Shown: positions 13,610-60,985 of the stretch, piece by piece
How positions within the stretch are numbered: the stretch's first letter is position 1
Layout: each line of letters begins with the position of its first letter
From: Blasia pusilla
Taxonomy: Eukaryota
Assembly (NCBI GenBank): GCA_050084515.1
Contig: CM114271.1
Coordinates: 22,072,001 to 22,136,000, forward strand
Length of the DNA: 64,000 nucleotides
Reading direction: 5' to 3'
The notes under the pieces: model-generated
The model's input: the letters and a program-made list of their open reading frames with translations, nothing else
Database searches by the model: none
Told to the model about the DNA's origin: nothing
Translations under genes and position numbers: made by a program

Positions 13610-15128
13610 CAAGGTTGAATGTGGACAAAGTCCGTGTCCACGGACATGTTCATGTCCGTGGACTTATGTTCGTCTTGTGGAAGCATGGTTGCACAAAAAT
13701 GGACAAGTCTGTCCTAATGACAAACATGGACGGAAAAATTTAAACATGGATTGTAAAATGTAAGGCCCACACTTTATAGTTCATGGTGGAAGGCAAGACA
13801 AGGGTGGGTAGGGAAATAAGGGAGAAGAGACTAGAGGTAGGAGGAGAAAGAAATAAGGAAGTGTGGATCATGAAGGCAAGTAGGGGGATGAGAAAGAAGT
13901 GGGAGATGGGACCCATATGGATTAGTCCTTCTATAGGATGGACGTAAATCCACAAATATGGACATGGACTTTGTCCTTATGCAACCTTCTATGGAAGAAA
14001 TTGTCCATATGGGCCCCACCTTCCCCTTCTTTCTCATTCTTCCCACTTGCCTTAGTGTTTTGCACTTTCCCATTTCTATCTCCCCCCTGGATCCCCCGCT
14101 TTCACTCCCTCTCCTATTATTACACCACTTGTCCTTGCCTTGCCTTCCACCATGAGATATAAGTGTGGTCCCCATCTCTTTCAAGTCATGTTCGTGGACG
14201 TGTTCTGACTTGTCCGTTGATATCCGTTCGGATATCAATAAAGTCTGTATTTGTCCCTAGGACGTGGATGTCTGTACGACAAGGTTGCACAAAAACGGAC
14301 AAGTCTAAACATGTCCACACACGTGCTGCTCGGGTAGCTGTGGCGCGCATCTAAGCCCGCCCTTGGAGCTTGCCGAGCCCGTAGCTCGCACTTGGGCTGG
14401 CCGAGCCCGCACCGGTTTTTTGGCCCACAACCACGCCCGCGCGAACTCACACATGGTGGAGTGGGCACCCATTGGGCGGGCTCAGGGCCCACGTTTGGGC
14501 GCCATGTGCGGGTCCAACGTGGGCCTAGCTGCAGGCCATAAAATTGGTGCGGGCTTGGCCAACCTTTGGGCCCGCTATGGCCTAGCCAGGCTATGGGGGT
14601 GGGCCGCAGGTACCTGAGCCCGCATGGACATTTGCATGTCCGCGGACACGGACTTTGTCCATGTTCAACCTTGTCGTACGGACTCAAGTACCTGTGTTGC
14701 GCACCCAAGCCCATCGAGCCCGTAACGTAGACTTGGGCTCGTCCACTCTACATCCATTTTGTAGCCCGGCATGAAGCGGACACGAGGCCCACAAGGCTGG
14801 ATGGCCCCCCATTGGGTAGACTTAGGCTTGCGTCTCAAGCCACACAAGGCCCGGAAGGTTGGCCGAAGCCCGCACAGGCTTGCCCTGTGCGATTAGCCCG
14901 CCATACGAGCATAAGCCCGCCCAATGGAGGCCCAACCCACCTTGTGGGCTTGTTGTGGGCCGAGGGCAGGCTACAAAATTGGTGCGGGCTGGACGAGCCT
15001 GGATCTACGTTATGGGCTCGGCAGGCGGGTTTGGGTGGGAGTAGGCCCTTTAGGGGACCCGTTGGTCATGTCCGTTTCCATGCATCCTTGGTCCTAAGAA
15101 CAGACTTGTCCATTTGTTTGCAACGATG
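13610..15128. mobile_element. Nested cluster of hAT-type MITEs
   Basis: Outer ends CAAGGTTGAA (13610) and TGCAACGATG (15128). Inner copy 13684-13989 has TSD TGTGGAAG/TATGGAAG. Inner copy 14280-14673 (CAAGGTTGCAC...TTCAACCTTG) has decayed TSD CTGTACGA/TCGTACGG. Confidence 0.85.
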
Positions 15129-35499: not shown

Positions 35500-38400
35500 A
35501 CCACTTTATTATAAAATAAACCTCAAAAGAGGACAAAGAAAGGTAATAACAACTCAAAAGAGGAGTAAAAAAATGCATAAAAGAATGCAAAAAGAAAACG
35601 ACAACAAGCCCACGTAAACACCGGCTCAACGAGCAACACGATTGATTGCTTGAAACAAATCTGACAAGAACACGAGTGGTTGGTCAGACGTGAATGGACG
35701 ACGAGGCGAGCGACCTTCCACCAAGCACGACGTATTAATGCCAAGGCTTGTGCACGTTGTAAGGCCACTGAGATGCATTGCCTAAAATAAGTAGTAACAA
35801 CCGAGAGAGAAGGACTACGGGAAGGGGCAAGGTGATGATTCTCGAGGGAGTGGTGAGCACATGTTTTCAGGAAAGTATCAAAAGACACATGTAAATGACC
35901 GAATACTTCCACTGCAAACGGAATAAATCCGTCAGTCGCATGTCTCACAACATAACTTAACTTCTTGATTCTTGCTGCAGCTTCGGCCGCCAAACCTTTG
36001 GTATGTGCGGCTTTACACACCAAGTCAGAACGTGTTGGATCAGCAACCACCACATCACCTAGTGTCCGGAATCCACCTCGAGACATAACAAGATCCACTC
36101 TCCGACGAGAGGTTGCTTGTGTGGTTGAAGGTAGGACATGGAGTTGCTCTTGCCCAACGGTATATCCTGCCGTACGAGCCACCGATGCTACCGCCTCTCT
36201 AATGACATCATGTGTGGCCGTTCATTCTCCACCATGTGCACATCGGAGAATATAGATACCCCTGGCATCAATAGGATCTCCGCATACACAATTTGGCACA
36301 CCTAAGAGAGAAGGATGGGGAAGTCCAAGACGTAACCGCAAAGCTGTCAAGAATATACTTTGAGGAAGACGAAATGGAAGAATAAGAGGATTTGCAGTAA
36401 GCCACGCCCCCGCTCCGGTACCAGCACATGAACGTAGACGAGCTTGATTAGCGTCGGAGGATGCCTCTGAGATAATGCTGGAAAAGTTGATTTGATGCAG
36501 ATTCTCGGAGATATGCTATTGAAGTCGATAAAGCCCTTCTGTAATTAGTTGACTAAAAGGGGGTAGAATTGCTTGTGTAGCAAGAGGAAGAAGAGCTCGT
36601 GCAGATCTTAGTTGTTGTTGAAATAACAAGTCCCCCTCCTCGACATGGGCGATATGATCCATCAAGATAGGTGTATCTCCTTGGAGAAACCTTGAAGCCA
36701 TAATCGATGCTACCAACGCCCAACTCCCCAAAAAGGCTGCGGGAGCAGATGTGACTGTGGAGGATAGTCCCACCCCTCCAAAAGAAATAGGCAAGATAGC
36801 TTGTCGTGAAGCAAAGACACCATCCTCTCCCTCAAAGGTATTCGGGCCAAGAAGTTGACCAAAAGTTGGCAAGATAGAAGCATCAAAAGAGGCCAGCCGA
36901 TGTAAGAAGCTTGAAGTGGGAGGACAAGTGCGAAGAAGGTAGGAAGGACGTCGAAGAAAACATTGGGAGAGAATCCCATAAGCCACTTGGGGATCCCCAA
37001 GATGAGGTAATAAATGAAGCCATTCCACGTCTTTCAAAAGGGCCTCATCCAAGAACTTTGAGACATAGTCGATGAAGCCAATTGGGACCCCAAGAACTCT
37101 AACCCCTTCAATGTAAATGGGAAAATCAGGAGTAGGTGGGGTGAATGTTGAGGGAAGGCATGAAGGAGACCATACTCCACATTTACTAGGTTGGACTTTA
37201 AGGTTTAAGAAAGAGAGTTGCTCCACGAAATGGGTATAAGCAAGAACCACTTTAGAAGGAGGACCTAAAATGTGAGTGTCATCAGCAATAGAAGGGAAAA
37301 GACAAGATGGAAATGCTTGCGATGATGCTCGAAGGGCACGAAAATGGGCAATGGCAAAGAGTGGGCCTCCCATGGGATCACCTTGACGTGTGCCACAAGC
37401 CGATTGTAGAATACTATATTCCCCAGAAGTAGCATGATGGGAATAGATAATGGGCGTATCATAGGCATAGAAGGAGCGAACAAATGGAATGAGGCTCACG
37501 AGTTGTCCTCCTACACAACGTAATTCCTCAAAGATGGCCGCACGAGAAACTGAATTGAATGCGTTAGCCACATCGACTTGAATTGCTACCTAATCTGGAT
37601 GAATATCAAGAGTGGAGCGAATCCCATGCACCACAGCCTCACAACCTCCAGGAGTTGCCACTCCAAATTGATGAGGAAATAAGTGGGCACTAAAGTGAGG
37701 ACGAAATTGCAAGCATAGGGATCGTGACCAAGCGGTATAAAACCTCTCCAATAGCCAAAGGCGCACACTGAAGGAGGCTTATCCATAGCCAACAAACGAC
37801 AAGCCCCTAAGAGCCTAGAGATAGAGAATGGGAGACGACCTGCCGCCATATGTGCACACACCTTATATAGAGAGACAAAGCCACTTTCTAAATCTGTTGG
37901 GATAAAGCAATCGCGGAGATGCTCAAAAACCATCCCTGATAGCCCGCTTGCTGATAAGCGAGGAGTATGCAGAAAAGCCCTAGTGAAAACCTCCAAGTCA
38001 AGCTCCAAGTCAAGGTCTGTTGTATAGTCTTCCACAAAAGATGGAGCATCGCCACTTGAAGGAGGATGAAGAGCTTCTAAGAGAGCCACTGTTTCCGCAC
38101 TTGGAACCGCCGAAGAAAGAGGACCTAATGCTCGAGCTGCACGTGAAAACTCACCAACCTGCCCCAATAGTAGACTTCGTCGAAGACGTTGTTGTATTGA
38201 AGGCCTCCCATGATTGGCATGTTGAGTGGCATGAGCCGCAGCTAAGGCCTCAGCTCGAAGTACATGCTCATTTTGAAGATTCTCCCAATCCCTTGACATA
38301 AAGCGTTGAATACGTGTGGAGTTTCACGATGACCCATTGCACCCCCCCTTGGAGGGAGGACTAAAACCCATTGTGGGAAGAGTAATAGGAGATACCAAGC

Positions 38401-46800: not shown

Positions 46801-48280
46801 GATCCGCTATAGAATGTGCCATGGTTGCTGCAGGTGTTGTGTTGCTGGATAACCGAGGAGAGATCTTAGAGTTGGTGAGTCAAGGAGGTAGATTTTTTTC
46901 TCCACAACGTGTCTTGTTAGATTCAGGAGCGCAACCTTAGCCGCATTAGGCATCGCCATCATATAGCCTTATGACTTGATTGAGGGGCATGTCCATGCAA
47001 AGAACATCTCCTCGCGTGACACTTGTAGGGAGAGGAGTGTTATGGTAGCCGCATCATTCCGTGGAGGAGAGGTATCATTGTGGGGCTCAAGTGAGTAGCT
47101 CCAACGCTTGGTAGATGAGCACGTGCAGATGGCGTGGAGTCACGCGTTTGCACCAGAGCGTGACAAAGGTGCAAACACGTGAATCCTGGCTACCTCGGAG
47201 AGGAACCCGAGGTAGCCGGGGAGTGCTACTATGACCCCTTTGGACACCACCGTACCCTGATCCTGTGGCGCATCCTAGAGGAGGGTATTTGCGTGTTGGA
47301 TCTCTTAAGAAGTATCAGCATTGGCTTAGCTGCTGTTTTGCAGGGACAAGTGCGTGTGCAAGAGGACTTGTATGTTGAGATTGATGATGTTGCGAGGCGC
47401 ATTTCACTTCACCATGTGGTGCAATTACGCCTCTGATTTCCCAAATTTTTGTGTGCGTCCGTCGTCTAGGGATTCCAGAGTTTCCTACCAAGGGACATTT
47501 CATTGTTGGGGGCGCAGGACTTGGAGCGGGCAGGGACCATAGATTTGGTCATTGCTAGTTGGTGGAGCCCAATGCCGATGAGTGAGAGCGAGCGATGGGA
47601 TTCTCCACAAGAGTGATGGCAGTACCATCAATATCAAAGGCATCACGACATCATATCTTGGGTCAGGCAAAGGACTTGAACTACTTCACATGGATTTTCA
47701 GCTTAAGAGTAGCTCAACAACATTGTTTGAGGAACTGTTGCGTTGGTGAGCCCCATGCCTATTGAGATATTCGAGGCATTGGTTGGAGGTGAGACTCGAG
47801 GAGATCGACACACTAGGAGTGATTGGTAGAGACACCCTTGAACTTGGGATGTTTTGAAGGTACGTCGGGAGATTATAGCTATAGCATCAAGCGTGGTTCC
47901 GGATACTGCACGTGGAGAAGATGAGATGAGAAGTTGCAATTGGTTGTAGGAGAGCATTCAAGTTCTACTGTCTGAGATAGAGTTGCACCATAGCAATCAT
48001 CAACACCCGCGCTGGAGAGTTCTACCGTAGTCACGATGGAGACTTGGGAGCCAGATATGGGCCTTAAGTTGACAAAAGGAGAGCAGCGGCGGATACATCA
48101 GTTCCTTAGGAGTTTTAGGATTTTCTTTGCATTTAGCATGCATGATCTGGGTATGCTAAAGGGTATAGGGATCCGCATTGAGTTCTTAAGCGACACGCCG
48201 ATCTTTCGACGACCCTACAGGTATAGTGACATGGAGAGGGCTTTGATTGAGAGTAGGAGCCAGGACTTGGTTGGAGCAGT
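40842..48280 (+). mobile_element. Gypsy-DNMT element D (5' part: LTR, leader, gag, protease, DNMT remnant, start of RT), interrupted at 48281
   Basis: LTR about 40842-41390 ending TTTACA. Gag about 44180-46200. Protease VLLDSGAQ about 46910. DNMT motifs at 47280-47620. RT start PIFRRPYRYSDMER about 48200. Colinear with elements at 50022 and 60986. Confidence 0.88.
44402..45395. mobile_element. Solo LTR (994 bp) inserted in the gag of element D
   Basis: TGTTGCG...CATGACA ends; perfect 5-bp TSD GATAT (44397-44401, 45396-45400). Removing it restores gag as seen uninterrupted at about 63500. Confidence 0.9.
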
Positions 48281-50021
48281 TGTTGTGCACATACAGATCG
48301 CTACACAACATACATTGCTTTCACCAAACATACACACAAACACGCATGATCCCAAGCTAACTCATGGCATCCAAACAATAAGACAAGAAGTACTAAAATA
48401 TCTCAAATCAATCGAGTCGATCTCTAATCAACATCTCACACCAAGCTCTCCATGGTATGCACTCTCTCTCTCATGTCAAACCAAACCCTTTCTCCTAATG
48501 AGAGGTTTGGGTTACATACACAAGGCAAGGAGGACCATAGCTAAAAAGTTACCACGAATTTCAAATTTAGCTCCTTCCTCACGCAGTGGCTATGGCAACT
48601 CCACAAAAATGATCATAATTTCTTGCTCCCATGTTCAAATTGTGCACTATTTCTTCCACAACGTGCATAGCTTCCCGATCTACAATAGCGTTAAATCAAC
48701 TTCTTCATACAACCTTCCAAAAAAAAAAACTGACAGGGATTGTCGTGCAACCCTTCAATCTGCACTCCCACAAAAAATTCAGCAAGGCTTCCGCGCTGAT
48801 TTCTCCCAACAAAAATTGCAAACCTATAAACACAACAACCAACAAGCTACAAGGTACTCTTGAGAGCACCAACATGGGGAAAATAGCCCCCATACTCAAT
48901 TTGTAACAAAATTTTGGCAACGCTTCCGCGTGTCACCCTCTTGTACGAAAAATCAGCAAAGGAATCAACAAAATTGAGCGGCTCTTGCTCGGGTGAGCAG
49001 TGCCATGAACCGCTGAACAGGGAATATGATCCCCAACCTGCAACAAGAGCGAGTGACCAGCAAGCTCCCCCATTGAAAATCTCTTTGTAAATCAAGTAGA
49101 TCTCTCATCAACATCTCACACCAAGCTCTCCATGGTATGCACTCTCTCTCATGTCAAACCAAACCCACTTTCCTAATGAGAGGCTTAGGTTACACACAAA
49201 AGGCAAGGAGGACCATAGCTTTGCCGCCTCATGCCAAGAGGTTCAACAAAGTGAGAATGAGGTCTAAAGCTCTCTCTTGGAGGTATACTCCCTTCCCTCT
49301 CTCAAGTTCTCTCCTCAGTAACCTATGCTTGCAGGTCACCTCCTTGGCTCTTGACCTGTTATAGCGGGTCAAGGGCCACTTCCCAAACAAGAAAGTCAAC
49401 TATACTCCAAATAGAAACTTACCCGAAATAGTGAGTTTCTCTATATGGCTCCAAATGAGCAGAAACAAAGGAAAAACCTTCTCTATGAGGTTACCCATGG
49501 CCTCAGGAGGTCATCCTCAACCTCCTGAGGGTTGTCTTGTAGTATCTTCGAAGGCGCTCTACTAGATCTTGCCGATCTATCCTAAAAGTTGTGACAAGTG
49601 TCCTACGCATACACATCGCTACACAACATACATCGCTGTCACCAAACATACACTCAAACACACACGATCCCATGCTAACTCATGGCATCCAAACAACGCG
49701 ACAAGAAGTCCCCCTAGATGGTGGTTAGGTCCCTCTAATTCCAGATAGCCATCTATCCCTACCTACAATGACATACATCTCTCAGACGCTAAGATAAAAA
49801 AAGTCGGGTGCCCAAGTGGCCCTATCCTTAGTCGCCTTCTTGTCACAGACAGAAGTCAAAATCTAGAACTACCTGCTCTATGTACATCTGGGACACATCC
49901 ATCATCCCTCAGGAACCCTAGTGAGAGATGGCGTCAAACATGCCATATGCAATCCTCTCGAACATCCATCACAGACTAGCATAGTGACTGCACCACGGGC
50001 CAAACCACACAACATACATCT
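48281..50021 (-). mobile_element. Gypsy-DNMT family element C, 3' end (PHD finger, PPT, B-A-...-B' repeats)
   Basis: PHD CMLCGLARGAVTMLVCDGCSRGLHMACLTPSLTRVPEG*WMCPRC at 50018-49884; PPT at 49717-49704; B 49703-49599; A 49596-49086; B' 48385-48281. Confidence 0.88.
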
Positions 50022-50389
50022 TGTCATGACCATACGGATTATGTCGTAGAGTATAGTGTGCTAGTAGAGGCCATACCTTATGTAGGGCCGTAGTGTCTAG
50101 GTAGAGATGCAGGTTCATACATAGGGTTGGGGGTTACTCCGTTGAGGGTGAATTTTCCAGTAGGGCCTGCTCTTAGGTTGGAGGATATAGTGTGGAGTGC
50201 ACTCAAAGAACAGTTAGTTCTTTGAGTTGAGCTTGTTGCGTTGGGAGTTAGCCTTGGTAGTGAGTAGAGCTCTTGGCTATGGTGGTTCCCGCAAGCTTCG
50301 ACCTCGATTCTCCCATCGTGGAGTGGGTTTGGCTCGATTGTATGTGATTCTATACGTATTTTATAACAATAGGTCTTTCATGGGTTTCA
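50022..50389 (+). repeat. A repeat (5' LTR-like), 368 bp
   Basis: TG...CA; direct repeat of 59243-59610 with about 17 mismatches counted by eye (about 95% identity). Confidence 0.95.
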
Positions 50390-53300
50390 CTCAAAGAAGT
50401 GGAATAGATCGATAGTACCTTCGATCGTGGATCAGTAGGATCTGGTTAGGGTTGATTGTGTACTCAGTAGTGGATGTTCATGGCTTTTGGCCTATGTTGG
50501 AGGTGTGAATCTAGTGCATGGTTGTTTGGGAAAGAATCGCCTTGCTAAGAGCTTTCCAACGCGCTTTAGATCCGCGGATTTTGTCAAGGGAGTTGGAAGT
50601 TATTAAGGATTGAAGATTCTGGTTCGTGTTCGACGGTTTTATGATTTAGAGAGCTTGGAGTGCGGAAGCTCTGTTGAAGTTCATCCAGATCGGGTGAGAG
50701 GTTCCTATTGCTACGTGTATTGTGATCTCATGTGAAGTTATCTGCTTGAGTGTGTGGAGCGTTGTGGATTTCTGTGTGCATGAATCTGGGCGGAAGCGAT
50801 GTTGGATTTGCAATTCTAGAGGTGTATGGACATCAAGTTTGTCTCATATTTAGCTTGGAGTATAGAGCTCGGTTGTAGCTGATTTTTTTATGGAGAGATA
50901 ACTATGGCGGCCAATTAAATTCTGGTTGAAACAGATTCAATTTTGGTTGAGGATTTATGGAGAAATTGTTGATCGAATTTTGCGGACTAGCTCAAGGTGG
51001 ACAACAGATCGGAGGGTCTGGTTGGTTTGTGACTCGTCCGTTGTTAGAGACGCCTATCTCGTTGGGAGCGCCCTGGTTGGGCATCTCTCCATAGCAAAGC
51101 ATGGCGAATGGGGCATGTCTCGAGCATCTCTTGTCGTTTGAGGCTTCGAGGCACCTCGTGGTAGCTTGGGACGAGTGGGCGTGAGAGGTGGAGTAAGGAG
51201 TAAGGAGCAAGGAGCAAGCAATCAAGCTTGCTTGCTTGGGCGTGAGGCAATTTTTGCAGGATTTGTGAGTTGAGTGTTGCATAACTGGTCACCCATCTTT
51301 GGGCTATTCTGCTTGGAAGACGCTTAACGGCTGAGTTCTTAACTATGTCAGTGTACACACTGGTGTAGCTCATTTGGTGTTGTTCAGAGATGTGTTAGGC
51401 GCTTTATGCATCTCACGTTTTTGGTTGATGTACCTCTAGCGCATAGTACGGTGTAGCCTCTCCATGCAGGTGATATTTTCACGTGCTGCGAGTGCGACTA
51501 GCACGTCATCGACCAGCGGCAGAGTAGCTATTGCGTTAGAATTTTGTGGTGGAATCTGTGGATTCAGAGGGTGCCACATTTGGTGGACTGTGTTACCTTG
51601 ATTTCCATTTGCGATCGGAGGGTTGTCGTTGGACTTCTTGTGTTCGGATCCCCTCCATCGTTGCTTCTTGCTTGCGCGCCCATTGTTAGGATTGACCTTG
51701 ATTTCCAAAGTAGTTTTACTCGTGTGTGCTACCGGTAGTGAGGCTGGAGTGATGACCAGTAGACCGTGGGAGGCTTCTTGTGGTGATGACATGTTAGGTT
51801 GCCCATAGCTAGTAGAGCTAGAATAGTACAGCGACATCAACATCACTTGGTTACTTAGTGGTGGTGATTTGGTGGTGGTGTGGCATCGACGTTGGTCATC
51901 ACGGAGCTATTTGGTGGTCTGGTTGGGGACCGTGGTACGGGCAGTGGTGGTTTTACATGGAGTGGATTGAGGTATCGGCTACCTTTTCCACTTCCGACGG
52001 TTGATGAAGAGGAGGACGAGGGTGTTCCAAACACCGAGTCTTTTACCTTGTTATCGAGTGTTGCAGCTCCATTGATTTGGGACATGGACGGGATATATGG
52101 GACCATGAAGGGCCCACCACGATACTCGAGTGCAGTGGGCACCATTGAGTTGGAGGACTTCATTCAATAGTTTGATACGTGGTGTGATATGCTAATGTTG
52201 CGGAACACCACGTTGTTTACACCCTTCTTGGCTTGGAAGGGGTTGTTCCAGCACTTGGAGGGACCACCCATGGACAATTACCATGAGTTAAGGAGGGACC
52301 ATGTTGGTGAGATTGAGGCGTGGAGACAATATTGGTCTCCAGGCTATGTGTCTATCACCCATGGTGGTATTGGTAGTAGTGCTCCTACTGTGTCAGCCAA
52401 TTTGACCTTGAGTAGTACAAGTACGAGCCGGAGTGGAGGTACCACTGGGGGTACTAGTGCTCCACCATCGTTCAGCCGGGTTGCAGAGTTCTTCAAGAGG
52501 TTGACGAAGAACTATCAGGGAGTGAAGATAGAGAAGTTGAGGAATCTTCAAGAATTTGAGCGAAAGACAGGTGAGAGACTTCGTGAGGCATACACTCATA
52601 TGACGCTTGATTTCAGTTACCTAGGGTGTGACTAAGGCTCAGGTAGTCTAGTTTTGGTATGGGATCTTGGACAAAGAGTTGCGCCGTAGGGTATGTGATG
52701 CTACTCTTATGAGTGATGATTCACCCACATTGGCCAATGTGTTTGCTCTATCTGAGAAGATTGAGCTTAACATGGTGGAGGAGAGAGTGGTGACATCCGC
52801 ATTCACTAGGGATACAACTACTACTTCTCGTGTTCAGCAGTCCACCTCACAGTCTCGTAGTGGTGATGGTGGTAGTAGTAGTGGGAGTCGTGGGGGGTAC
52901 ACACGACCTCAGTTAGGTCCTAGAGGGACACTTGCGCAGAGACCATTGCCTTCATTTGCTGCCCCGCAGCAAGGACAATCATGTTGGACATGTGGAGGTG
53001 ATCATGTCAGGAGGTTTTGTCTCCAAGAGGATGGGAGACGGACTTTGGAGGATGGGCCTCAGTCAGCCCCAACTCAGTGTGACCAAGTCATCCTCGAGAG
53101 CGTTGCTTTGATCTTCATCCAGAGTTGAGATCAGGCCGCGGACGTGGTGGAGTAGCTCCGAGAGGCCGAGGTGGTAGAGGTGGTAGGGATGGTAGAGGTG
53201 GACGAGCGGTTGGAGAGCCTATGGTGGCTATCCCTACCACTACGACAGTAGTCACTATGGTGCCGAGATTGAGCTTGATTGGAGCAGAGGTTGGCTACTA

Positions 53301-54714
53301 TGGTCGGTATCCAAAGATAGAGTAGGTTCCGGAGCGGGGCTTCCACCTCTTATGGAGGGAATGATCTCTCTTATATGGCAAGTGCAAAGACAAAGTTGAG
53401 GCATCGATTGCGATTACGAGAGGAGCCACTCGAGCGTTAGAGCCACGTGGTGCTACTGTGGAGTTGGACCCACAGAGGGGTGAGGCTGGGAGGCAGGCTA
53501 GGCTTCCCCAATCATTCTTGTTGTCTAGGGTGCTTAGGACTCCATCCATGGCTCCTACGCAGTCTATTGAGCCTACAGTGGGGACTAAGGTATCTACATC
53601 GCGTTTAGTAGACATAGATGCAGCATCCAGTGTAGTATTGCAGATGGCAACTTCAGTGTTGGGATCCCCATTATTTTCAGCCACTGAGTTGATGGCCTTA
53701 GGAGTTGACTTAGCTCGTGTATTTCAGCTAGCAGCCACGTTGTGTGAACGTGGGAGTATTACTTCTACACGTGCTGAGGTGGATGAGGGTGTTGCGGTGG
53801 AGAAACCCTCTATGTTAGGTGTAGCATTGAGTACCAGTGCTACTTGGCAGGCAACAGCGGCGAAGATGGATGCATTACCAGCCCGGCCAGCCATTGATTG
53901 TGAGAGGCTTACACTTGGTGTATGTATGTTGGACAATTGGAGTGGGTTATTCCGATTGGTGAGTCCTACAAGACAGGTGTATAGACCAGATAGAGTCTTG
54001 TTAGACTCTGGTGCCCAACCTTTGATGTTGGGAAAGGCAGCATGTATTGGTTTGGGTATTCGGAGGTCAAAGCTTGAGCCTTGCCCAATCCAGATTCAGA
54101 CATCACTTGGAGGAGCCAATGATAGGTCTGATTTCATGACATGGGAGAAGTTTTCTGTACAATTGAGACCATATCATGCGAGTGATAGCTCCTGGTTGGG
54201 AGTACCTGCAGTGGTCACATCAGCCGAGTCGCATGATGTACTAGTTGGAGGAGCAGTATTGTACTCGATGGGTTTTCAGATGGACTACTGAACTGAGACA
54301 ACGTCTTATAGACCTGGTTGGCAGTTTGGGGATGGACGTATGAGCCAGGTTCCTCTGAGATTTATTTATGGGGCTCGACCAGGAGGGTCTTCCCCAATGG
54401 TGTTAGCATCTGTGGCTGGTTTTTGTGGAGTAGTCACTTGGCCAGGAGACTTTTTGGAGGGCAACCTTTCTGCTATGGATTCTCCTATGCATGAGGAGGT
54501 AGAGGAGGTCCCTAGTTTTGCAGCAGTGGTATCCTCATCGTTGGATGTGCCACTTTGGAGTTCAGGCGGTGCCCTACGACAGGAGGTTGATTGCCTAGTG
54601 GAGGAGGCTTGGTGTGAGGCTGTTATACCTCACGAGGAAGAGGAGGCTCCGGCAGACTCCTACTTCTGGTCCTGTTGGGTTATACTACACCCATTGTATG
54701 GCAGTATCAGCTAG

Positions 54715-55570
54715 AGGGCATTTGTGTGTTAGATCTCTTTGATGGGATTAGCATTGGTTTGGCTGCAGTGTTGCAGGCCGCTATTCCTTTGCGGAGATAC
54801 GTGTATGTGGAGCGAGATGAGACGGCCCAGAGAGTCTCATCCCGACATATTGGTCAGTTGATGCGGAGATATCTTGAGTTGTTGCCGCCATCAGCTATTC
54901 GTGGGTATCAGCGTGCTTTGCCGTCACACATTGCATTGTCGTAACACCCGTAACATCTCCCAAAACAATCGAGACCTAGGTCTCGATTGTTTTGGGAGAT
55001 GTTACGGGTGTTACGACATCTTCAGGTTCATCAGGCACGTGCTCCAGCTTATATTCGAGAGAATGTTCCATTGTTGGGTGACACTCGGACCCGGATGATG
55101 GCGAGTGTTCATGAGGTTGGATTGGACCAGCCGTGTTGTTGGATGCAGTGCGAGTTGGCTCACGTGCACATCGTCCACGCTTGTGGTGGACAAACTTGTT
55201 GCCTAGGGAGGTTCTACGTTGAGCATATGATGCAGTGCAATGGGATCCTTGGCTTACAGTGGATAGTATCTTGGATACTGGGCGACTTTCTTAGGTGGTG
55301 AGGGTTATTGATCAGTCACCCATCATAGTGGTGAACTGTGTGGGCCAGCCTAGGATGGCACTACCCACATTTGTGAGTTTTCCCTCGTCACATGCCTAGA
55401 GGGAAGATGGTCCCGGGCTTGTATGGGATTCTCATGTGCGACAGTTGGTGGAGCCTAACGCTGATGAGAGAGAGCGTGCAATGGGATTTGCTACTCGTGT
55501 GACAACGATTGCTTCCATTTCTGAGGCTTCACGACGTCATGTGTTGGGTCAGGCCATGGACCTGATTTTT
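54715..55570 (+). pseudogene. Retrotransposon-encoded DNMT3-like C5 cytosine methyltransferase domain (disrupted)
   Basis: ICVLDLFDGISIG (motif I), YVYVERD (II), RSRLFWEMLRVL..ENVP (V-VI), PAVLLDAVRVGSRAHRPRLWWTNLLP (VII-VIII), ERERAMGF...RRHVLGQAM (IX-X). Motif IV is missing; frameshifts and stops present. Confidence 0.9.
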
Positions 55571-55869
55571 TTACCTCGATTTTGAGTCTTGGTATGGCCG
55601 AGCAGCGTCGACTTCGGACTATGTCTATGGGTCTTCCACCCCTTGTGATGAGCTCGATGGCTACCGGGCCGGTAGAGACATCGGCTGGGGTCGAGGAGAA
55701 CAGTATTTTGCATCCTTGGAGTAAATGGGATGTTATGGCTGGGCATGTGGAGTTGGTTGCTCATGCTGGTGGAGGAGTTACTTGCTCAGATGATGGTGTA
55801 GCTAAGTGTGTACCATCTTGTAAGGGAGTTGCATAGCAGCCAATGGTGTCTTCCTCTCCCTCTAGTGTG

Positions 55870-58800
55870 CTAGTGGAGGAGACTTGGGAGCCATTACTTG
55901 GGCCCAAGCTTACGGAAGGTGAGAAACGACGCTTGACATAGTTCCTACGTGCTTATAGCAGTTGTTTTGCCTTTAGCATGAAGGAGTTGGGTGCTTTGGT
56001 TGGACCCGATATACGGATTGATTTGGCTAGTGATACACCAATCTTTTGTCGTCCCTACCGATATAGTGATATGGAGAGGGACCTGATTCAGAGTAGGACG
56101 TTGGACCTTTTAGAGGCAGGATTAGTGGAGTTGTTGCATGGAGAGTATGCATCAGCCACTGTCATGCCTGCTAAAAAGGATGTGCATGGCAACTACACAG
56201 ATAGGCGGATGTGTGGAGATTACCGTCCTATCAATCCGTAGACCAAGGTCGATAGGTATGCCATGCCTACACTTGAGGAGATCATTGATGTGGTGGGACC
56301 GGCAAAGATTTTCAGTACTTTGGATCTTCGAGCAGGATACCATCAGTTGCCGATTCGAGAGAGTGACAAGGCCAAGACAACATTTTGGGGTGTCAACTCT
56401 CATGGCAAGGATTGTTTGTACCAGTGGAAATTCTTACCCTTTGGGTTGAAGAATGCACCTGCCGAGTTTGAGAGAGTGATGGACAGGATCCTAGCAGGGT
56501 TGGATTTGGTTCGGTGTTACATTGATGATATCTTGGTGTTTAGTAACACAGTGGAGGAGCATCAGATACATTTGCAAATTGTGTTTGAGCGGTTGAAAGC
56601 TCATGGTCTATGTTTGCCATTCAGGAAAGTATAAGTTCTTCCTTAAGGATATTGAGTACTCGGGTCATGTGATCTATCCAGATGGTTTGGGAGTTCAGCA
56701 AGCAAAGGTGGAGGCTATTGCACTTATTCCTTGTCCGGTAGATGTGAGTAGAGTTGGGGCATTCATAGGATTGACGAACTACTATCGGAGGTATGTGAAG
56801 GGATTTAGTGCTATGGCAAAGCCTTTGAACCAATTGTTGAAATCAGATCAGGAGTGGTACTGGGAAGATGATCAGGAGAGAGCTTTTGTGGAGCTCAAGG
56901 CCCACTTGGTGGCGGCGCCTATCTTGAGGAGACCTATCAGAGGGCGCCCATTTCAATTACACACTGGTTGGAGTAGGTTGGGGCTTGGAGCGGTGTCGAC
57001 ACAACATGATGATGAGCACATGGAGTTTGTCGTGGCCTATGCAAGTCGTTCGAATAATGCAGCGGAGTCCCGCTATAGTTCATATGAGGGAGAGTGCTTG
57101 GCAATAGTGTGGGTTGTGGCACACTTTAGGTGTTACTTGTTTGGCTCATAGTTTACCCTTGTTATTGATCACCAGCCGCTCAAGTGGTTGATGGAGTCTG
57201 ACAAGCTTACAGGGAAGCTTGCACGGTGGGCTCTTATCTTACAGGAGTATAATTTCCAAGTGGTACATAGACGTGGAGTTGCCAACCTTGATGCTGATAG
57301 GTTGAGTAGGAACCCATATACTAGCCAAGAGGATGCAACTCGGGCTAGATGCCATGGCGAGGGTGATGAGGAGATTGTGCCAGGTTGGCATGCATCTGCC
57401 TTTTTATGTTGGTTACGGGTGGACTCTAGTATGGAGGACCACATGACATCTTACTCTAGTGAGAGGGTATATGGCCAGCCTTCAGATGCTAAGGTTGGAT
57501 ATGATATTCATGATGATGCGTTGGTGTTGGAGTTCCTACGGACTTGTAGGGTGCCAGACATAGTGGGTGCCAAGGAGCGAGACCGTGTTCTTCAACGTGC
57601 TAAGAGGTATCGATTGGAGGGAACACATATTCTCCGTGTGTGGGAGGATGGTAGAGTACGAGTAGTGCCACATTTGGCTCAAAGAGAGCACATTGTGCGA
57701 CATGCCCATGAGGAGTTGGGACATTTTGGGGTAAAGCGTATATATAGCTTACTCCTTGGTCAATATTGGTGGCGTGGCATGCATACTGAGGTGCAGCAAT
57801 TGGTGTCACATTGTATGGTTTGTGACCGGGTGAGGGCATCACTCAATGCCCCTTCACCACAGTTACACCCCTTGCCTATTATGGGGTTGGGTTACCGTTG
57901 GAGTGTGGACTTTGCGGGACCGTTACCGTAGTCGTTGATTGTACGACATCATCGATATGTGTTGGTGATGGGGGAGCACTTCTTCAAGTGGATTGAGTTG
58001 GTGGCATTACCTGACAAGGCAAGTGAGGGAACGGCGTATGCCTTAGAGTTCTTTCTTGATAGAGTGCTTAGTCATTTTGGTGCACTAGCTGAAGTGCTGA
58101 CCGACCAAGGTACAGAGTTTCAAGGTGAGTTTCAGGTCTTGTGTGACAAGGCGTTGATTGATCATCGGACCACGTCTCGAGATCATCCAGAGGCGGATGG
58201 TTTGGCTGAGCGTGTGTTTCAAACGATAAAGAGGGCATTGCGCATGTATGGCCTACATAAGGGGCATCTTGGAGATAAAGAATATTCAGTTGCCATGGTT
58301 AGGCATAGGATATAGGTTCAGTCGCCAAGCATCCTTGGCTTCCTTCTCACCTTATTTTTTGTTATACGGCCGAAATCCAGATTTTCTTGCGGCAATTCGT
58401 GAGGAGTCTACAAAGGTGGTGAACCTTGACGATCCACAGATATGGATGAGAGTGTATTCTCAGCGGGCAGACCTCTTTCGGAGAGTTATGCCAACAACCT
58501 TTGAGAATCTTGCCATTGCTCAACACAAGGATACGTTTCTGTATGCAACCATTCGGGGTGGAGGTTATCGACCATCGATTTTTAGGTTCCATGTGGGGGA
58601 CTATGTCTATTTGCAGCAGATTGCACCAACAATGTTGGATGTGACTGCAAGCCGCACTATTTTACGAGTGCGCGAGGTGTTAGCTTCTTGAGTTCTCATG
58701 TTGAAGGGTCGTGATGGAGTTGTTTAGAAGGACCGTGTGCGTAATTGTGCGCCATGTCATCTTCCAAATATGGATGGTAATGTTGACCCAAGCTTAGCCA

Positions 58801-58970
58801 TGATACGTGCTAGCTTGAGGTGCATGTTGTGTGGGTCTGTTGGTAACGCAGCCCGTATGTTGGTGTGTGATCGGTGTTCTAGGGGTTGACACATGATATG
58901 TTTGACTCCACGTATGGATGTTGTTCCTACTGGAAGGTGGATTTGTCCTCGATGTACTAAGGAGAGGTAG
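55870..58970 (+). pseudogene. Gypsy RT-RNaseH-integrase-PHD coding region, with stops and frameshifts
   Basis: ORF pieces 55978-56241, 56263-56634, 56603-57151, 57188-57931, 57935-58315, 58248-58691 in Gypsy domain order; PHD at 58821-58955. Confidence 0.95.
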
Positions 58971-59136
58971 ATGACATGATCTTTGCATGATATGGATTAC
59001 AGATGTGCGACTTACGATGGGGCAACCCAGCACCCGACCTTCTGATTCGTGCACCCACGAAGGTGTATAGCATGTAGTAGATGTATAGGGCTACCTGGGA
59101 GTTAGAGGGACCTAACCGCCAATTAGGGGGGCGAGT

Positions 59137-59715
59137 TGTGATACACTTGTGTTTGTGGATGCTCTCGTCTATGTTATGTATGAATGCGAGTATGGTATGT
59201 CAGCGATGTCTTTTGTATGACGATGTGGATTCGCACGACAGTTGTCATGACCATACGGATTATGTCGTAGAGTATAGTGTGCTAGTAGAGGCCATACCTT
59301 ATGTAGGGCCGTAGTGTCTAGGTAGAGACGCGCGTTCATACATAGGGTTGGGGGTTACTCCGTTGAGGGTGACTTTTCCAATAGGGCCCGCTCTTAGGTT
59401 GGAGGATATAGTATGGAGTAAACTCAAAGAACAATTAGTTCTTTGAGTTGAGCTTGTTGCGTTGGGAGTTAGCCTTGGTAGTGAGTAGAGCTCTTGGCTA
59501 TGGTGGTTCCCGCAAGCGTCGACCTGGATTCTCCCATCGTGGAGTGGGTTTGGCTCGATTGTATGTGATTCTATACGTATTTTATGATAGTAGATCTTTC
59601 ACGGGTTTCAGTTGTCGTACACTTGTGTATGTGGATGCTCTCGTCTATGTTATGTATGTATGTGAGTATGGTATGTCAGCGATGTAGTTGTATGACGATG
59701 TGGATTCGCACGACA
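59137..59715 (+). repeat. 3' terminal B-A-B' repeat block after the PPT
   Basis: PPT AGGGGGG at 59125-59131; B1 59137-59240; GT; A2 59243-59610; GT; B2 59613-59715; each unit TG...CA. Confidence 0.95.
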
Positions 59716-60985
59716 ATCGTAAGCGTGCACGAGTTACTGCTAAGCTTGGATTAACTATACCGTTAATGTTAGGAAGGTGACATGGCGCACACTTACGCAC
59801 ATGGTCCTTCCAAACCATACCATTGCGTCCACACTATATCCAATAAGGGAACACTAGATGGAAAAATCTCATGCACTCTTAAGATGGTGCGTCCTTCAAT
59901 CACATCCAACATTATGGGTGCTGTCTGTTGCAAGTAGACATAGTCTCCCTCTGAGTGAAACCTCTGGATAGGTTGATAGCCACCTCCCCAAAAAGTCGCA
60001 TACATTAACATATCCCGATGTTGCGCAATCACCAAATTCTCAAACACCATGGGCATCACTCTCCAAAACAACTCAGCCTTCTGAGAACATGCTCGCATCC
60101 ATACATCAGGATCATCAAGGTTTAACACCTCACCAATATTTCGACGAATGACCACAGGTAAATCTGGCTCTCAGCCATAAAGTAGCAAGTACGGTGAGAA
60201 AGACGCTAAGGATGCTTGCTTGCTGAATCTGTATCCCATCGCCAAACACGGCAACTGGAGGTCCCAATCTCCTAGGTGATCTCTCTGCAAGCCATACTTA
60301 CGCAATCCTCTCTTCATTGTTTGCACAACCCTCTTTGCTAGTCCATCCGCCTCAAGATGATCTTGCAAAGTGGTGTGGTGGTCCATCAATGCCTAATCAC
60401 AAAAGGTCTGAAACTCCCCGCGAAACTCCGTACCTTGGTTTGTCAACACCTCAGTTGGTGCGCCGTAATGACTCAACACTTGATCTAGGAAGGCAAACGC
60501 TACTCCCTTACTCGCTTTTTCATCCAATGCAAGCAACTCTATCCACTTCCAGAAGTGCTCGACCATCACCAACACATAACGACTATGGAGCTCCGTCAAA
60601 GGTAAAGGTTCTGCAAAATCCAAACTCCATCTATAACCTAAATCCATGATCAAAATTGGATGCAACTGTGGAGTCGGAGCATTGAATGATGCCCGGACCC
60701 AATCACACACCATGCACCTAGCAACAAACTGTTGAACGTCAGTCTGCATGCCTCGCTACCAATATTGTATCTAAAGCAAGTTGTACGTCCGCTTCACTCC
60801 AAAATGACAAAAATCCTCGTGACACACCAAACTTGCTGTCTGTGAAGGATTAGGCACTACATCTACTCTATCATCCTCCAAAACCTCCAACATATGCATC
60901 CCCTCCCACCAGAACCGTTTGGCTCGTTGTAGGATCAGATCCCGCTCTCTAGCACCCACTATCCTCTCAACGCTGCCTATATGCA
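59716..60985 (-). mobile_element. Element C integrase segment; continues into 50021 downward, interrupted at 60986 by element E
   Basis: Minus-strand ORFs CHFGVKRTY, CMVCD, WSLDFAEP, TNQGTEF, ADGLAKR, GDYVYLQQ are homologous to 57700-58800. Confidence 0.92.

What the first reader, a model, noticed from the sequence alone, without database searches (positions are those of the whole stretch)
54715..55570. DNMT3-like cytosine methyltransferase embedded in a land-plant Gypsy polyprotein
Seen: C5-MTase motifs in canonical I-X order between protease and RT. VLDLFDGI, PAVLLDA..GSRAHRPRLWWTNLLP and ERERAMGF..RRHVLG parallel DNMT3A (VLSLFDGI, PVMIDA..SAAHRARYFWGNLP, EMERVFGF..RQRLLG), and the order is not the permuted one of DRM. 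Known: Dnmt-carrying retrotransposons were reported in Symbiodinium and the charophyte Klebsormidium (de Mendoza et al. 2018). Inference: a retroelement that could methylate its own cDNA or target site. With the PHD, self-priming and permuted repeats, this is a distinctive system in an embryophyte.
Basis: partly seen in the sequence, partly recalled or inferred. Interest (0 to 1): 0.9.

Follow-up and report, generated by a model that had tools for sequence, protein, structure and literature searches.

The report
Dead DNMT3 domain in liverwort retrotransposon
A jumping gene in a liverwort genome carries the broken remains of a DNA-methylating enzyme of the DNMT3 type, and its better-preserved relatives in the same plant are transcribed, so this kind of element, known from an alga, also lives in land plants.

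Summary
The quoted motifs are real and lie between protease and RT of a 9.7-kb Ty3/Gypsy element (50021-59715). This copy is a pseudogene. About 35 codons including the catalytic PCQ motif are replaced by a 36-nt inverted duplication. There are also three stops and two frameshifts, and no piece reaches PF00145.

The family is real and large, with 671 cluster representatives. Named relatives are Marchantia, Calypogeia, Riccia and Sphagnum, and Closterium further out. Intact relatives hit PF00145 and match DNMT3A/B/C best by sequence profile and by fold. They keep the catalytic Cys in 91 of 94 domains. dN/dS is about 0.2.

The host is a Marchantiopsida liverwort. RNA reads from the same organism show sense transcripts from other copies that keep the deleted segment.

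The element has the A-coding-B-A-B repeats described for KnitGypsy-Dnmt3, a C-terminal PHD finger, and a conserved in-frame stop between gag-PR-DNMT and RT.

Verdict: a new land-plant member of a known kind. This locus is dead, and enzymatic function is inferred, not shown.

The parts
50021..50389 (+). Terminal repeat A1, the 5' end of the element
   Evidence: 95.4% identical over 369 nt to 59242-59610. The left flank is an older minus-strand copy that ends at 50020.
50389..50398 (+). PBS-like motif ACTCAAAGAA directly after A1, complementary to 50218-50227 inside A1
   Evidence: 13 of 20000 random 9-mers of A1 composition have a complement in A1. The same junction motif occurs in 13 places in the 80 metagenome loci, 8 of them with the exact complement within 400 nt upstream, and in six of these it lies 153-166 nt upstream. 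A role in priming is inferred.
51889..53086 (+). gag with CCHC knuckle (CWTCGGDH at 52982-53005), decayed
   Evidence: tblastn of P0432 residues 2-386 and P0160 residues 1-336, 52-64% identity, with frame changes and stops.
53368..54651 (+). Protease region (LLDSGAQP at 53998-54021) and linker
   Evidence: P0432 residues 479-906 at 67% identity. Pfam aspartyl protease hits are weak, E=0.13.
54708..54939 (+). DNMT N-terminal part, motif I (VLDLFDGI) up to just before motif IV
   Evidence: Aligns to P0156 residues 35-119. The frame is open.
54940..54975 (+). Inverted duplicate (left arm of the 82-nt perfect palindrome 54937-55018) standing where about 35 codons including GWPCQ should be
   Evidence: Searches show the palindrome. 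P0156 residues 120-154 have no counterpart. RNA reads from other copies leave the window at 54939 and rejoin it at 54975.
54975..55117 (+). DNMT middle part with motif VI (IRENVP at 55053-55070)
   Evidence: Aligns to P0156 residues 155-202. The right palindrome arm is native coding sequence (LFWEMLRVLRHLQ).
55118..55573 (+). DNMT C-terminal part (motifs VIII, IX, X), in another frame, with three stops at 55220, 55292 and 55397
   Evidence: 78% identical to P0156 over 152 tree columns; its alignment to P0156 residues 205-353 is. phmmer E=1.2e-59 to a Marchantia protein.
55837..55845 (+). In-frame stop TAG followed by CAG CCA, the end of the gag-PR-DNMT reading frame. RT follows in the same frame.
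   Evidence: P0432 (1329 aa) aligns up to 55830. A stop is kept at the homologous site in 53 of 54 aligned metagenome loci. In 5 loci the DNMT ORF, the stop and the RT ORF share one frame. The context fits CAR YYA (passage in PMC2754532). Readthrough is inferred.
55885..57151 (+). RT and RNase H (YIDDIL at 56518-56535)
   Evidence: PF00078 E=2.5e-24 and PF17919 E=1.3e-27. P0167 residues 696-1190 at 66-68% identity, with a frameshift at 56617.
57152..58700 (+). Integrase (H2C2 zinc domain and rve core)
   Evidence: PF17921 E=2.2e-15 and PF00665 E=2.5e-6.
58821..58955 (+). PHD finger at the C-terminus of integrase, with one stop inside
   Evidence: PF00628 E=9.4e-11, 42 bits against a cutoff of 24. 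73.6% identical to the C-terminus of Marchantia P0216.
59134..59240 (+). Repeat B1
   Evidence: Aligns to 59610-59715, with 6 differences in 107 columns.
59242..59610 (+). Repeat A2
   Evidence: 95.4% identical to A1.
59610..59715 (+). Repeat B2, the 3' end of the element
   Evidence: The right flank from 59716 continues the older minus-strand copy.
47254..47826 (+). Second, older DNMT remnant in a truncated upstream copy. Everything from motif IV to just before motif IX is deleted.
   Evidence: P0160 residues 870-972 map to 47254-47562 and residues 1148-1205 to 47559-47732. The translation reads ...IDLVIASW then VEPNADE.ERAMGF.
59716..60962 (-). Older minus-strand copy of the same family (integrase and PHD), split by the insertion. 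Its other half is 49592-50020.
   Evidence: 57560-58816 matches 60962-59721 at 69.5%, and 58818-59130 matches 50021-49710 at 67%. The flanks abut within a few bases at the homologue of about 58817.

Best explanation
Positions 54708-55573 are the decayed remnant of a DNMT3-type cytosine-C5 DNA methyltransferase domain. The domain is a standing part of a streptophyte Ty3/Gypsy retrotransposon family, here in a Marchantiopsida liverwort.

In intact relatives the element reads as follows: repeat A, a PBS-like motif, an ORF of about 1250-1340 aa encoding gag(CCHC)-protease-DNMT, one conserved in-frame stop (TAR CAA CCY), then RT, RNase H, integrase and a PHD finger, then repeats B-A-B. The window element (50021-59715) has this whole layout. 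It is a precise nested insertion into an older copy.

The window copy is dead. Its DNMT has lost about 35 codons with the catalytic PCQ to a fold-back rearrangement, and it carries three stops and two frameshifts.

Shown: the homology, the fold class, the layout, conservation of catalytic residues in the family, purifying selection, and transcription of other copies in this organism.

Inferred: in live copies the DNMT is made in Gag-like amounts, as the C-terminus of the primary product, with pol made by stop readthrough. The protease then releases it, and it methylates DNA de novo. The most likely substrate is the element's own cDNA or new insertion. The PHD finger on integrase would steer integration toward particular chromatin. 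I put about 0.4 on self-methylation of cDNA or the insertion as the role, with the rest spread over the rivals.
For: - Homology: E=1.2e-59 to a Marchantia polymorpha protein, and 671 cluster representatives at E<=0.001. All 27 of the 70 hits that carry an organism name are bryophytes: 17 Marchantia, 4 Calypogeia, 1 Riccia, 5 Sphagnum.
- PF00145 above its cutoff in relatives: for example 6 of 7 proteins and 7 of 8.
- DNMT3 class: the profile hits DNMT3A at 4.8e-27, ahead of DRM at 4.9e-15, HhaI at 3e-8 and DNMT2 at 1.6e-6. The AlphaFold model has pLDDT 89.3. All listed Foldseek hits to rank 49 are DNMT3A/B/C, best E=2.7e-19, and 0.80-0.85 of the target length normalised TM for the catalytic-domain chains.
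- Catalytic residues in 94 full domains: Cys 91, ENV Glu 94, ENV Asn 91, motif I Gly 92, and both Arg of motif VIII 92 each.
- dN/dS of the window remnant against three open DNMT ORFs is 0.19-0.25, against 0.13-0.20 for RT-RH.
- In-frame ORFs: P0432 is gag-PR-DNMT at 1329 aa, and P0414 is CCHC-PR-DNMT-RT-RH-INT at 2327 aa.
- The stop is kept in 53 of 54 aligned loci, and 5 loci have the DNMT ORF, the stop and the RT ORF in one frame.
- The A-coding-B-A-B layout is seen in the window and independently in L051.
- RNA: two RNA runs of the same organism cover all 30 bins, almost only in the sense direction. Reads leave the window at 54939 and 54975 into sequence that codes LGAQDLERVG and RAGRGEGLHD. 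They read CAG where the window has the stop at 55292 (20 of 21 and 32 of 35 reads).
- Host: the RpoT exon is 89%, 88% and 88% identical to Marchantia paleacea, M. polymorpha and Riccia fluitans.
Against: - No piece of the window copy reaches PF00145, and the PDB match of the window piece alone is weak (E=0.06). The identification therefore rests on relatives.
- Only 3 of 80 metagenome loci hold a full DNMT in one ORF. dN/dS among close copies is 0.37-1.02 with a median of 0.65 over 20 pairs. Most copies are decaying, and selection shows only over deeper divergence.
- The codons for PCQ were not seen in the RNA reads. Only 30 letters on each side of the gap are shown.
- No enzymatic activity has been shown for any Gypsy DNMT3. 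The Klebsormidium domain gave no methylation in yeast, which the authors called inconclusive (PMC5890265, passages read).
- Marchantia gene models may be spliced around defects.
- No tree with canonical DNMT3, DRM or Klebsormidium sequences was made.
Confidence: 0.85

Rival explanations
1. The domain at this locus is intact enough to act, so this element can methylate DNA.
For: Motifs I, VI, VIII, IX and X are readable.
Against: Motif IV with the catalytic Cys is missing. There are three stops and two frameshifts in the domain, and at least 10 stops and 5 frame changes across the gag-PR-DNMT frame. Only 9 of 2783 and 32 of 2721 RNA reads are 99% or more alike to this copy.
Confidence: 0.02
2. 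The domain is a one-off capture of a host DNMT3 gene fragment, or an insertion of the element into a host DNMT3 gene, and not a family trait.
For: Retrotransposons do transduce host sequence. That is general knowledge and was not tested here.
Against: The same domain sits at the same place in the second window copy, in 17 named Marchantia gene models, in 54 aligned metagenome loci and in Closterium. It is continuous with gag and PR in single ORFs.
Confidence: 0.02
3. Across the family the domain is a catalytically dead fold kept for binding (DNA, SAM or chromatin), as an earlier scan note reported for a diatom element.
For: No activity was seen for the Klebsormidium domain in yeast (PMC5890265). 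In 34 of 94 domains the Pro before the catalytic Cys is Glu.
Against: Cys is kept in 91 of 94 domains, ENV Glu in 94 of 94 and motif I Gly in 92 of 94. The liverwort clade keeps GWPCQ.
Confidence: 0.1
4. The family's methyltransferase acts on something other than the element's own DNA. It might act on RNA, or in trans on host chromatin, shaping the host methylome or slowing transposition.
For: All of these are raised in the discussion of PMC5890265 (section read). Placement in the abundant gag-PR product would give many molecules per particle.
Against: Nothing here separates these roles. The closest solved relatives are DNA enzymes.
Confidence: 0.3
5. The domain descends from DRM or from a prokaryotic or viral C5 methyltransferase, and not from DNMT3.
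For: The language-model look-alike search lists two phage-rich PF00145 clusters among its top three.
Against: DNMT3A scores 98 bits, against 58 for DRM and 36 for HhaI. DRM matches only profile positions 74-205, on its C-terminal part, as expected for a permuted enzyme. All listed fold hits to rank 49 are DNMT3.
Confidence: 0.05

Closest known systems
KnitGypsy-Dnmt3 of Klebsormidium nitens (de Mendoza et al. 2018, PMC5890265; abstract, passages and discussion read)
   Same: Both have Gypsy-type pol domains with a non-permuted DNMT3-like domain in the polyprotein, and key catalytic residues are kept. The repeats are arranged A-coding-B-A-B, 'as a DIRS' (Fig. 4c legend). Purifying selection is similar: their Ka/Ks is below 0.2, and here it is 0.19-0.25. 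The host is a streptophyte.
   Different: The host here is an embryophyte. Named relatives are liverworts and Sphagnum mosses and Closterium. The position of the domain in K. nitens is not given in the text I could read, so I cannot say whether PR-DNMT-stop-RT is shared. No K. nitens sequence was compared. The supplements were closed.
Green-algal Gypsy elements with RT-RNaseH-DNMT-integrase-PHD, seen here in Monoraphidium, Haematococcus and Cymbomonas proteins and in many metagenome proteins
   Same: The DNMT domain is homologous (35-40% identity to P0156), and both have a PHD finger after integrase.
   Different: In these elements the domain sits between RNase H and integrase. On the DNMT tree they form one group of 108 rows (support 99) with no PR-DNMT-RT member.
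SymbioDIRS-Dnmt3 of Symbiodinium (PMC5890265)
   Same: A DNMT3-like domain lies inside pol, with A-coding-B-A-B repeats. De novo CG methylation was shown in yeast for these elements.
   Different: They are DIRS elements with a tyrosine recombinase, in a dinoflagellate host. The authors judged the acquisition independent.
Cellular DNMT3A/3B/3C (solved structures) and plant DNMT3 (Yaari et al. 2019, PMC6453930; passages only)
   Same: These are the best sequence-profile and fold matches, with colinear motifs I, IV-VIII and IX-X.
   Different: The domain here has no PWWP or ADD domains next to it. It is 20-23% identical to the solved structures. It is part of a retrotransposon polyprotein. A PHD finger exists, but on integrase.
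DRM (domains rearranged methyltransferase) of plants
   Same: Both are DNMT3-related plant C5 methyltransferases.
   Different: DRM is circularly permuted and this family is not. DRM scores lower and matches only half the profile.

Membership tests
C5 cytosine DNA methyltransferase (PF00145) | Pfam PF00145 match above the gathering score | tested here: not met
   The window pieces give no hit, even at E<=10. Relatives do hit: for example P0432 at 40.1 bits, P0414 at 48.2 bits and P0160 at 35.6 bits, against a cutoff of 22.
C5 cytosine DNA methyltransferase (PF00145) | Motif IV with the catalytic Pro-Cys | tested here: not met
   It is deleted in the window copy (P0156 residues 120-154 are missing) and in the second window copy. 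The Cys is present in 91 of 94 family domains.
C5 cytosine DNA methyltransferase (PF00145) | Motif I (F-x-G-x-G), motif VI (ENV) and motif VIII (R-x-R) | tested here: met
   LFDGISIG, IRENVP and RAHRPRLWWTN are in the window. The motif names are recalled; the alignment to DNMT3A is.
DNMT3 class | Non-permuted motif order, and best match to DNMT3 among solved methyltransferases by sequence | tested here: met
   The profile of 25 relatives hits DNMT3A at 4.8e-27 in three colinear stretches, DRM at 4.9e-15 and HhaI at 3e-8. No DNMT1 or CMT chain appears at E<=0.01. For the window piece alone, 23 of 24 PDB hits are DNMT3, but only at E>=0.06.
DNMT3 class | Fold of the DNMT3 catalytic domain | tested here: met
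   The model is of relative P0156, which is 78% identical to the window remnant. pLDDT is 89.3. All listed Foldseek hits to rank 49 are DNMT3A/B/C, and the catalytic-domain chains among them give target-normalised TM of 0.80-0.85. The window copy itself was not folded.
DNMT3 class | Placement inside the DNMT3 clade on a tree with DNMT1, CMT, DRM, DNMT2/5/6 and prokaryotic enzymes | not tested
   No reference sequences of those classes were at hand as tool outputs. The tree holds family members only.
Gypsy-DNMT3 retrotransposons (KnitGypsy-Dnmt3) | Gypsy-type PR, RT, RNase H and integrase with a DNMT3-like domain in the same coding frame | tested here: met
   Domains in the window. One-ORF relatives: P0432 and P0414. 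In the window the frames are broken.
Gypsy-DNMT3 retrotransposons (KnitGypsy-Dnmt3) | Repeats arranged A-coding-B-A-B | tested here: met
   Window: A 50021-50389, B 59134-59240, A 59242-59610, B 59610-59715. L051: A 5619-5955, B 14253-14367, A 14372-14708, B 14708-14822.
Gypsy-DNMT3 retrotransposons (KnitGypsy-Dnmt3) | [quoted passage not shown] | tested here: inconclusive
   0.19, 0.22 and 0.25 for the window against three open ORFs. Among close copies the median is 0.65 over 20 pairs.
Gypsy-DNMT3 retrotransposons (KnitGypsy-Dnmt3) | Direct sequence kinship with the K. nitens elements | not tested
   No K. nitens protein appeared by name. The searches list only part of the hits.
Ty3/Gypsy LTR retrotransposon | Domain order PR-RT-RNaseH-INT | tested here: met
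Ty3/Gypsy LTR retrotransposon | Two identical LTRs at the ends and a tRNA-type primer binding site | tested here: not met
   The ends are A...B-A-B, not LTR...LTR. The sequence after A1 is complementary to A itself. No tRNA match was looked for.

The most novel reading that the evidence does not exclude
Liverworts, including the model Marchantia polymorpha, and Sphagnum mosses may harbour live, transcribed Gypsy elements whose primary translation product ends in a working DNMT3-type de novo methyltransferase. That product would be made in Gag-like amounts ahead of a TMV-like leaky stop. If so, a transposon-encoded DNA methyltransferase is at work in land plants, methylating its own new copies or host DNA. 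Its role could then be tested genetically in a tractable plant.
Probability: 0.3. Interest if true: 0.75.

Novelty: new member of a known kind. Interest (0 to 1): 0.58.

Why it matters
Retrotransposons that carry a cytosine methyltransferase have been described in dinoflagellates and in one charophyte alga (PMC5890265). What the enzyme does for the element is still open. [quoted passage not shown]

It has at least 17 annotated gene models in Marchantia polymorpha, and it is transcribed in the window's host. The question of function therefore moves into plants where knock-outs and methylomes are routine.

There is also a practical point for annotation. Some 'DNA (cytosine-5-)-methyltransferase' entries in bryophyte proteomes are transposon ORFs, so counts of host DNMT3 genes may be inflated.

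The locus itself is an ordinary dead copy.

Tried and rejected
- Whole-genome search of the host: no genome is held for this window.
- Pfam on the window pieces: nothing.
- Earlier scan notes: nothing by place or by sequence. A word search gave one note on a diatom element.
- ESM Atlas: it returned only generic PF00145 clusters, one streptophyte and two phage-rich, and did not help with classification.
- Run search: no listed holder is on record as RNA, and organism names are coded. The raw RNA runs were then laid.
- Palindrome check: laid DNA contigs could not confirm or refute the palindrome at this very locus. The listed pieces are short, and 1150 loose ends were not shown.
- Target-site duplication: the flanks of the window element and of L051 gave no clear duplication. 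'ATC' is possible in the window.
- Klebsormidium link: no K. nitens protein surfaced by name, and the paper's text gives no domain order.
- Literature: searches for a report of such elements in liverworts or mosses, or of the Marchantia gene identifiers, found none. Passages read in PMC12344493, PMC6453930 and PMC11982613 say nothing on it. Subscription journals and supplements were not covered.
- One-off host-gene capture, a working enzyme at this locus, and DRM or prokaryotic descent were all considered and rejected. See the rival explanations.
Full report
**What is at the coordinates.** Their positions are VLDLFDGI 54726-54749, IRENVP 55053-55070, RAHRPRLWWTN 55163-55195, ERERAMGF 55466-55489 and RRHVLGQAMD 55532-55561. 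Upstream is a protease (LLDSGAQP at 53998-54021). Downstream are RT (PF00078, E=2.5e-24), RNase H, and an integrase with its zinc domain. The observation of methyltransferase-like motifs between PR and RT therefore holds.

The claim of a complete I-X series does not hold. Against the closest intact relative (P0156), the window aligns to residues 35-119, 155-202 and 205-353. Residues 120-154, which include GWPCQ, have no counterpart. There are frameshifts near 55117 and 55564, and stops at 55220, 55292 and 55397. No piece of the region reaches PF00145.

**The lesion.** A perfect 82-nt palindrome lies at 54937-55018. Its right arm is native coding sequence (LFWEMLRVLRHLQ, as in the relatives listed). 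Its left arm (54940-54975) is an inverted duplicate that stands where the missing 35 codons should be. RNA reads from other copies leave the window exactly at 54939 and rejoin it at 54975. Whether the palindrome is a real fold-back rearrangement or an assembly artefact could not be settled with the contigs laid. Either way the segment is absent here.

A second, older remnant at 47254-47826 has a different deletion, running from motif IV to just before motif IX.

**Is it a methyltransferase?** The 155-residue C-terminal piece, with stops read as X, finds 671 cluster representatives at E<=0.001 among 1.84 billion proteins. Of these, 336 are at E<=1e-10. The best hit, at 1.2e-59, is a Marchantia polymorpha protein. 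Relatives carry PF00145 above its cutoff: 6 of 7, 7 of 8, and P0432 and P0414. In most relatives the Pfam match covers only profile positions about 49-130, which is the stretch deleted in the window. That explains the blank for this copy.

- **Sequence.** A profile of 25 relatives hits DNMT3A at 4.8e-27 in three colinear stretches. DNMT3C and 3B follow at about 1e-24. DRM comes at 4.9e-15 to 4e-12 on half the profile only. HhaI is at 3e-8 and DNMT2 at 1.6e-6. No DNMT1 or CMT chain appears at E<=0.01.
- **Fold.** An AlphaFold model of P0156 has pLDDT 89.3. All its listed Foldseek matches to rank 49 are DNMT3A/B/C.
- **Catalytic residues.** In 94 full-length family domains the catalytic Cys is kept in 91, the ENV Glu in 94 and the motif I Gly in 92. 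In 34 of them the residue before the Cys is Glu, not Pro.

The family domain is therefore DNMT3-like and not permuted. I made no tree with other methyltransferase classes, because no reference sequences were available as tool outputs.

**The element.** A1 (50021-50389) and A2 (59242-59610) are 95.4% identical. B1 (59134-59240) and B2 (59610-59715) flank A2. The layout is therefore A-coding-B-A-B. The legend of Fig. 4c in PMC5890265 gives this arrangement for KnitGypsy-Dnmt3. An independent metagenome copy, L051, has the same layout.

The element is a precise insertion into an older minus-strand copy of the same family. The two flanks abut at the homologue of about 58817, which is the start of the PHD-coding part. 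A PHD finger follows integrase (PF00628, E=9.4e-11).

Between 44 and 64 kb the window holds at least four copies of the family.

**Reading frames.** An uninterrupted 1329-aa metagenome ORF (P0432) aligns from gag to the end of the DNMT, up to 55830. Two codons later the window has TAG. Marchantia and Calypogeia models end at the same point.

In 54 metagenome loci that align here, 53 keep TAG or TAA, and 51 keep CAA as the next codon. The surrounding DNA is only 67-81% identical. The exact motif TAR CAA CCY ATG G occurs in 50 loci. In 14 of them the frame ending at the stop holds DNMT. In 14 the same frame continues into RT. In 5 both are true.

In the window, RT is in the same frame as the stop. 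The context TAG CAG CCA fits the CAR YYA signal of the tobacco mosaic virus leaky stop (passage in PMC2754532). I infer programmed readthrough. The DNMT would then be the C-terminus of the abundant product.

A more distant lineage has one fused ORF, CCHC-PR-DNMT-RT-RH-INT, of 2327 aa.

**Range of the family.** Among 292 stored relatives, 60 show PR-DNMT-(RT), 85 show RT-before-DNMT and 30 show DNMT-INT. On a FastTree of 163 full domains, the RT-before-DNMT and DNMT-INT rows form one group of 108 rows (support 99) with no PR-DNMT-RT member. The window lies in a 20-row group (support 100) with Marchantia and Calypogeia, outside the 10-row M. polymorpha cluster.

- Named PR-DNMT-RT members are Marchantia, Calypogeia, Riccia and Sphagnum and Closterium.
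- Named RT-RH-DNMT-INT-PHD members are the green algae Monoraphidium, Haematococcus and Cymbomonas.

A host gene in the window, an RpoT exon at 2462-2992, is most like Marchantia paleacea (89%). M. polymorpha and Riccia fluitans follow at 88%, then Calypogeia at 79% and angiosperms at about 73%. The host is therefore a Marchantiopsida liverwort. Its name was not given to me.

**Selection and expression.** dN/dS between the window remnant and three open DNMT ORFs is 0.19-0.25 at dS 0.73-0.83. RT-RH of the same elements gives 0.13-0.20. Among close metagenome copies it is 0.37-1.02, with a median of 0.65 over 20 pairs. One pair with dS under 0.05 was dropped. That is what post-insertion decay would give. 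Only 3 of 80 loci hold a full DNMT in one ORF.

Two raw RNA runs labelled as the same organism cover all 30 bins of 52000-59100, almost only in the direction expected for sense RNA. Few reads are 99% or more alike to this copy (9 of 2783 and 32 of 2721), so the transcripts come from other copies. These reads:
- run into sequence coding LGAQDLERVG and RAGRGEGLHD where the window has the palindrome;
- read CAG at the 55292 stop (20 of 21 and 32 of 35 reads);
- carry an extra A after 55564 (29 of 35 and 16 of 29);
- lack one base at 56617 (44 of 86 and 28 of 68).

The PCQ codons themselves lie in the unseen middle of the gap.

Against the other genomic copies, the window differs mostly by A where they have G (92 places) and T where they have C (66). 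The reverse changes number 29 and 31 (run X1). This pattern is what deamination of methylated cytosines in this copy would leave.

**How it most likely works.** In live copies, Gag-PR-DNMT is the main product and pol comes from readthrough. The protease frees the DNMT, which methylates DNA de novo. The PHD finger on integrase reads histone tails and steers insertion; the nest of copies here is in line with targeting to like chromatin. The substrate is not known. The authors of PMC5890265 discuss several options: methylation of the cDNA to escape recognition or editing, effects on chromatin at the insertion site, RNA methylation, and self-restraint (discussion read). I favour methylation of the element's own cDNA or insertion, at about 0.4. 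None of this was tested.

**Novelty.** The kind is known from Klebsormidium. I found no paper that reports it in liverworts or mosses. One paper says such transposons are absent from land plants such as tracheophytes (PMC6338049). A 2025 survey and a 2026 preprint speak of 'streptophytes' without detail. Their supplements were closed and may list bryophyte members.

I file this as a new land-plant member of a known kind. The locus itself is dead.

Noticed in passing
window 55837-55845; loci L001-L080: There is a conserved in-frame stop between DNMT and RT. It reads TAG CAG CCA in the window and TAR CAA CCY ATG G in 50 metagenome loci. This looks like a TMV-type leaky stop (CAR YYA), which would make pol a readthrough product.
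   Followed up: partly
window 50389-50398 and 50201-50227: The first bases after repeat A (ACTCAAAGAA) repeat one arm of a small hairpin inside A and are complementary to its other arm (TTCTTTGAGT). The same pair is found in 8 of 13 junctions in the metagenome loci. In six of them the complement lies 153-166 nt upstream, in two about 82 nt. This fits self-priming of the Tf1 kind. The Tf1 comparison is recalled.
   Followed up: partly
window 49592-50020 and 59716-60962: The element is inserted, in opposite orientation, at the start of the PHD-coding part of an older copy of its own family. At least four family copies lie within 44-64 kb.
   Followed up: partly
window 54937-55018: A perfect 82-nt palindrome sits inside an element whose terminal repeats have diverged by 4.6%. 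It is either a recent fold-back rearrangement or an assembly artefact.
   Followed up: partly
family alignment of 94 DNMT domains: In 34 of 94 domains the residue before the catalytic Cys is Glu (GWECQ) and not the usual Pro. All 94 keep the ENV Glu.
   Followed up: no
window 52000-59100 against DNA runs X1 and X6: Where the window differs from the other genomic copies, it mostly has A for their G (92 places) and T for their C (66). The reverse changes number 29 and 31. This is the footprint expected from deamination of methylated C in this copy.
   Followed up: no
window 57482-58489: 13 and 20 RNA reads in the two runs join 57482 to 58489, with 9 other letters between. Internally deleted copies lacking about 1 kb of integrase are therefore transcribed too. 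The ends CA..TA are not those of a standard intron.
   Followed up: no
window 2462-2992: An exon of a phage-type organellar RNA polymerase gene (RpoT; PF00940, E=3.6e-36). This host gene served to place the window in Marchantiopsida.
   Followed up: yes
window 36516-37589 (minus strand): A 357-aa open frame with a weak RT match (PF00078, E=1.9e-7). It belongs to another, unrelated retroelement remnant.
   Followed up: no
proteins P0157, P0192, P0210, P0214, P0217: Sphagnum proteins encoded on contigs of 15-25 Mb are up to 75% identical to the liverwort DNMT remnant over the aligned parts. That is about as close as Marchantia copies. It may reflect strong constraint or transfer between mosses and liverworts.
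   Followed up: no
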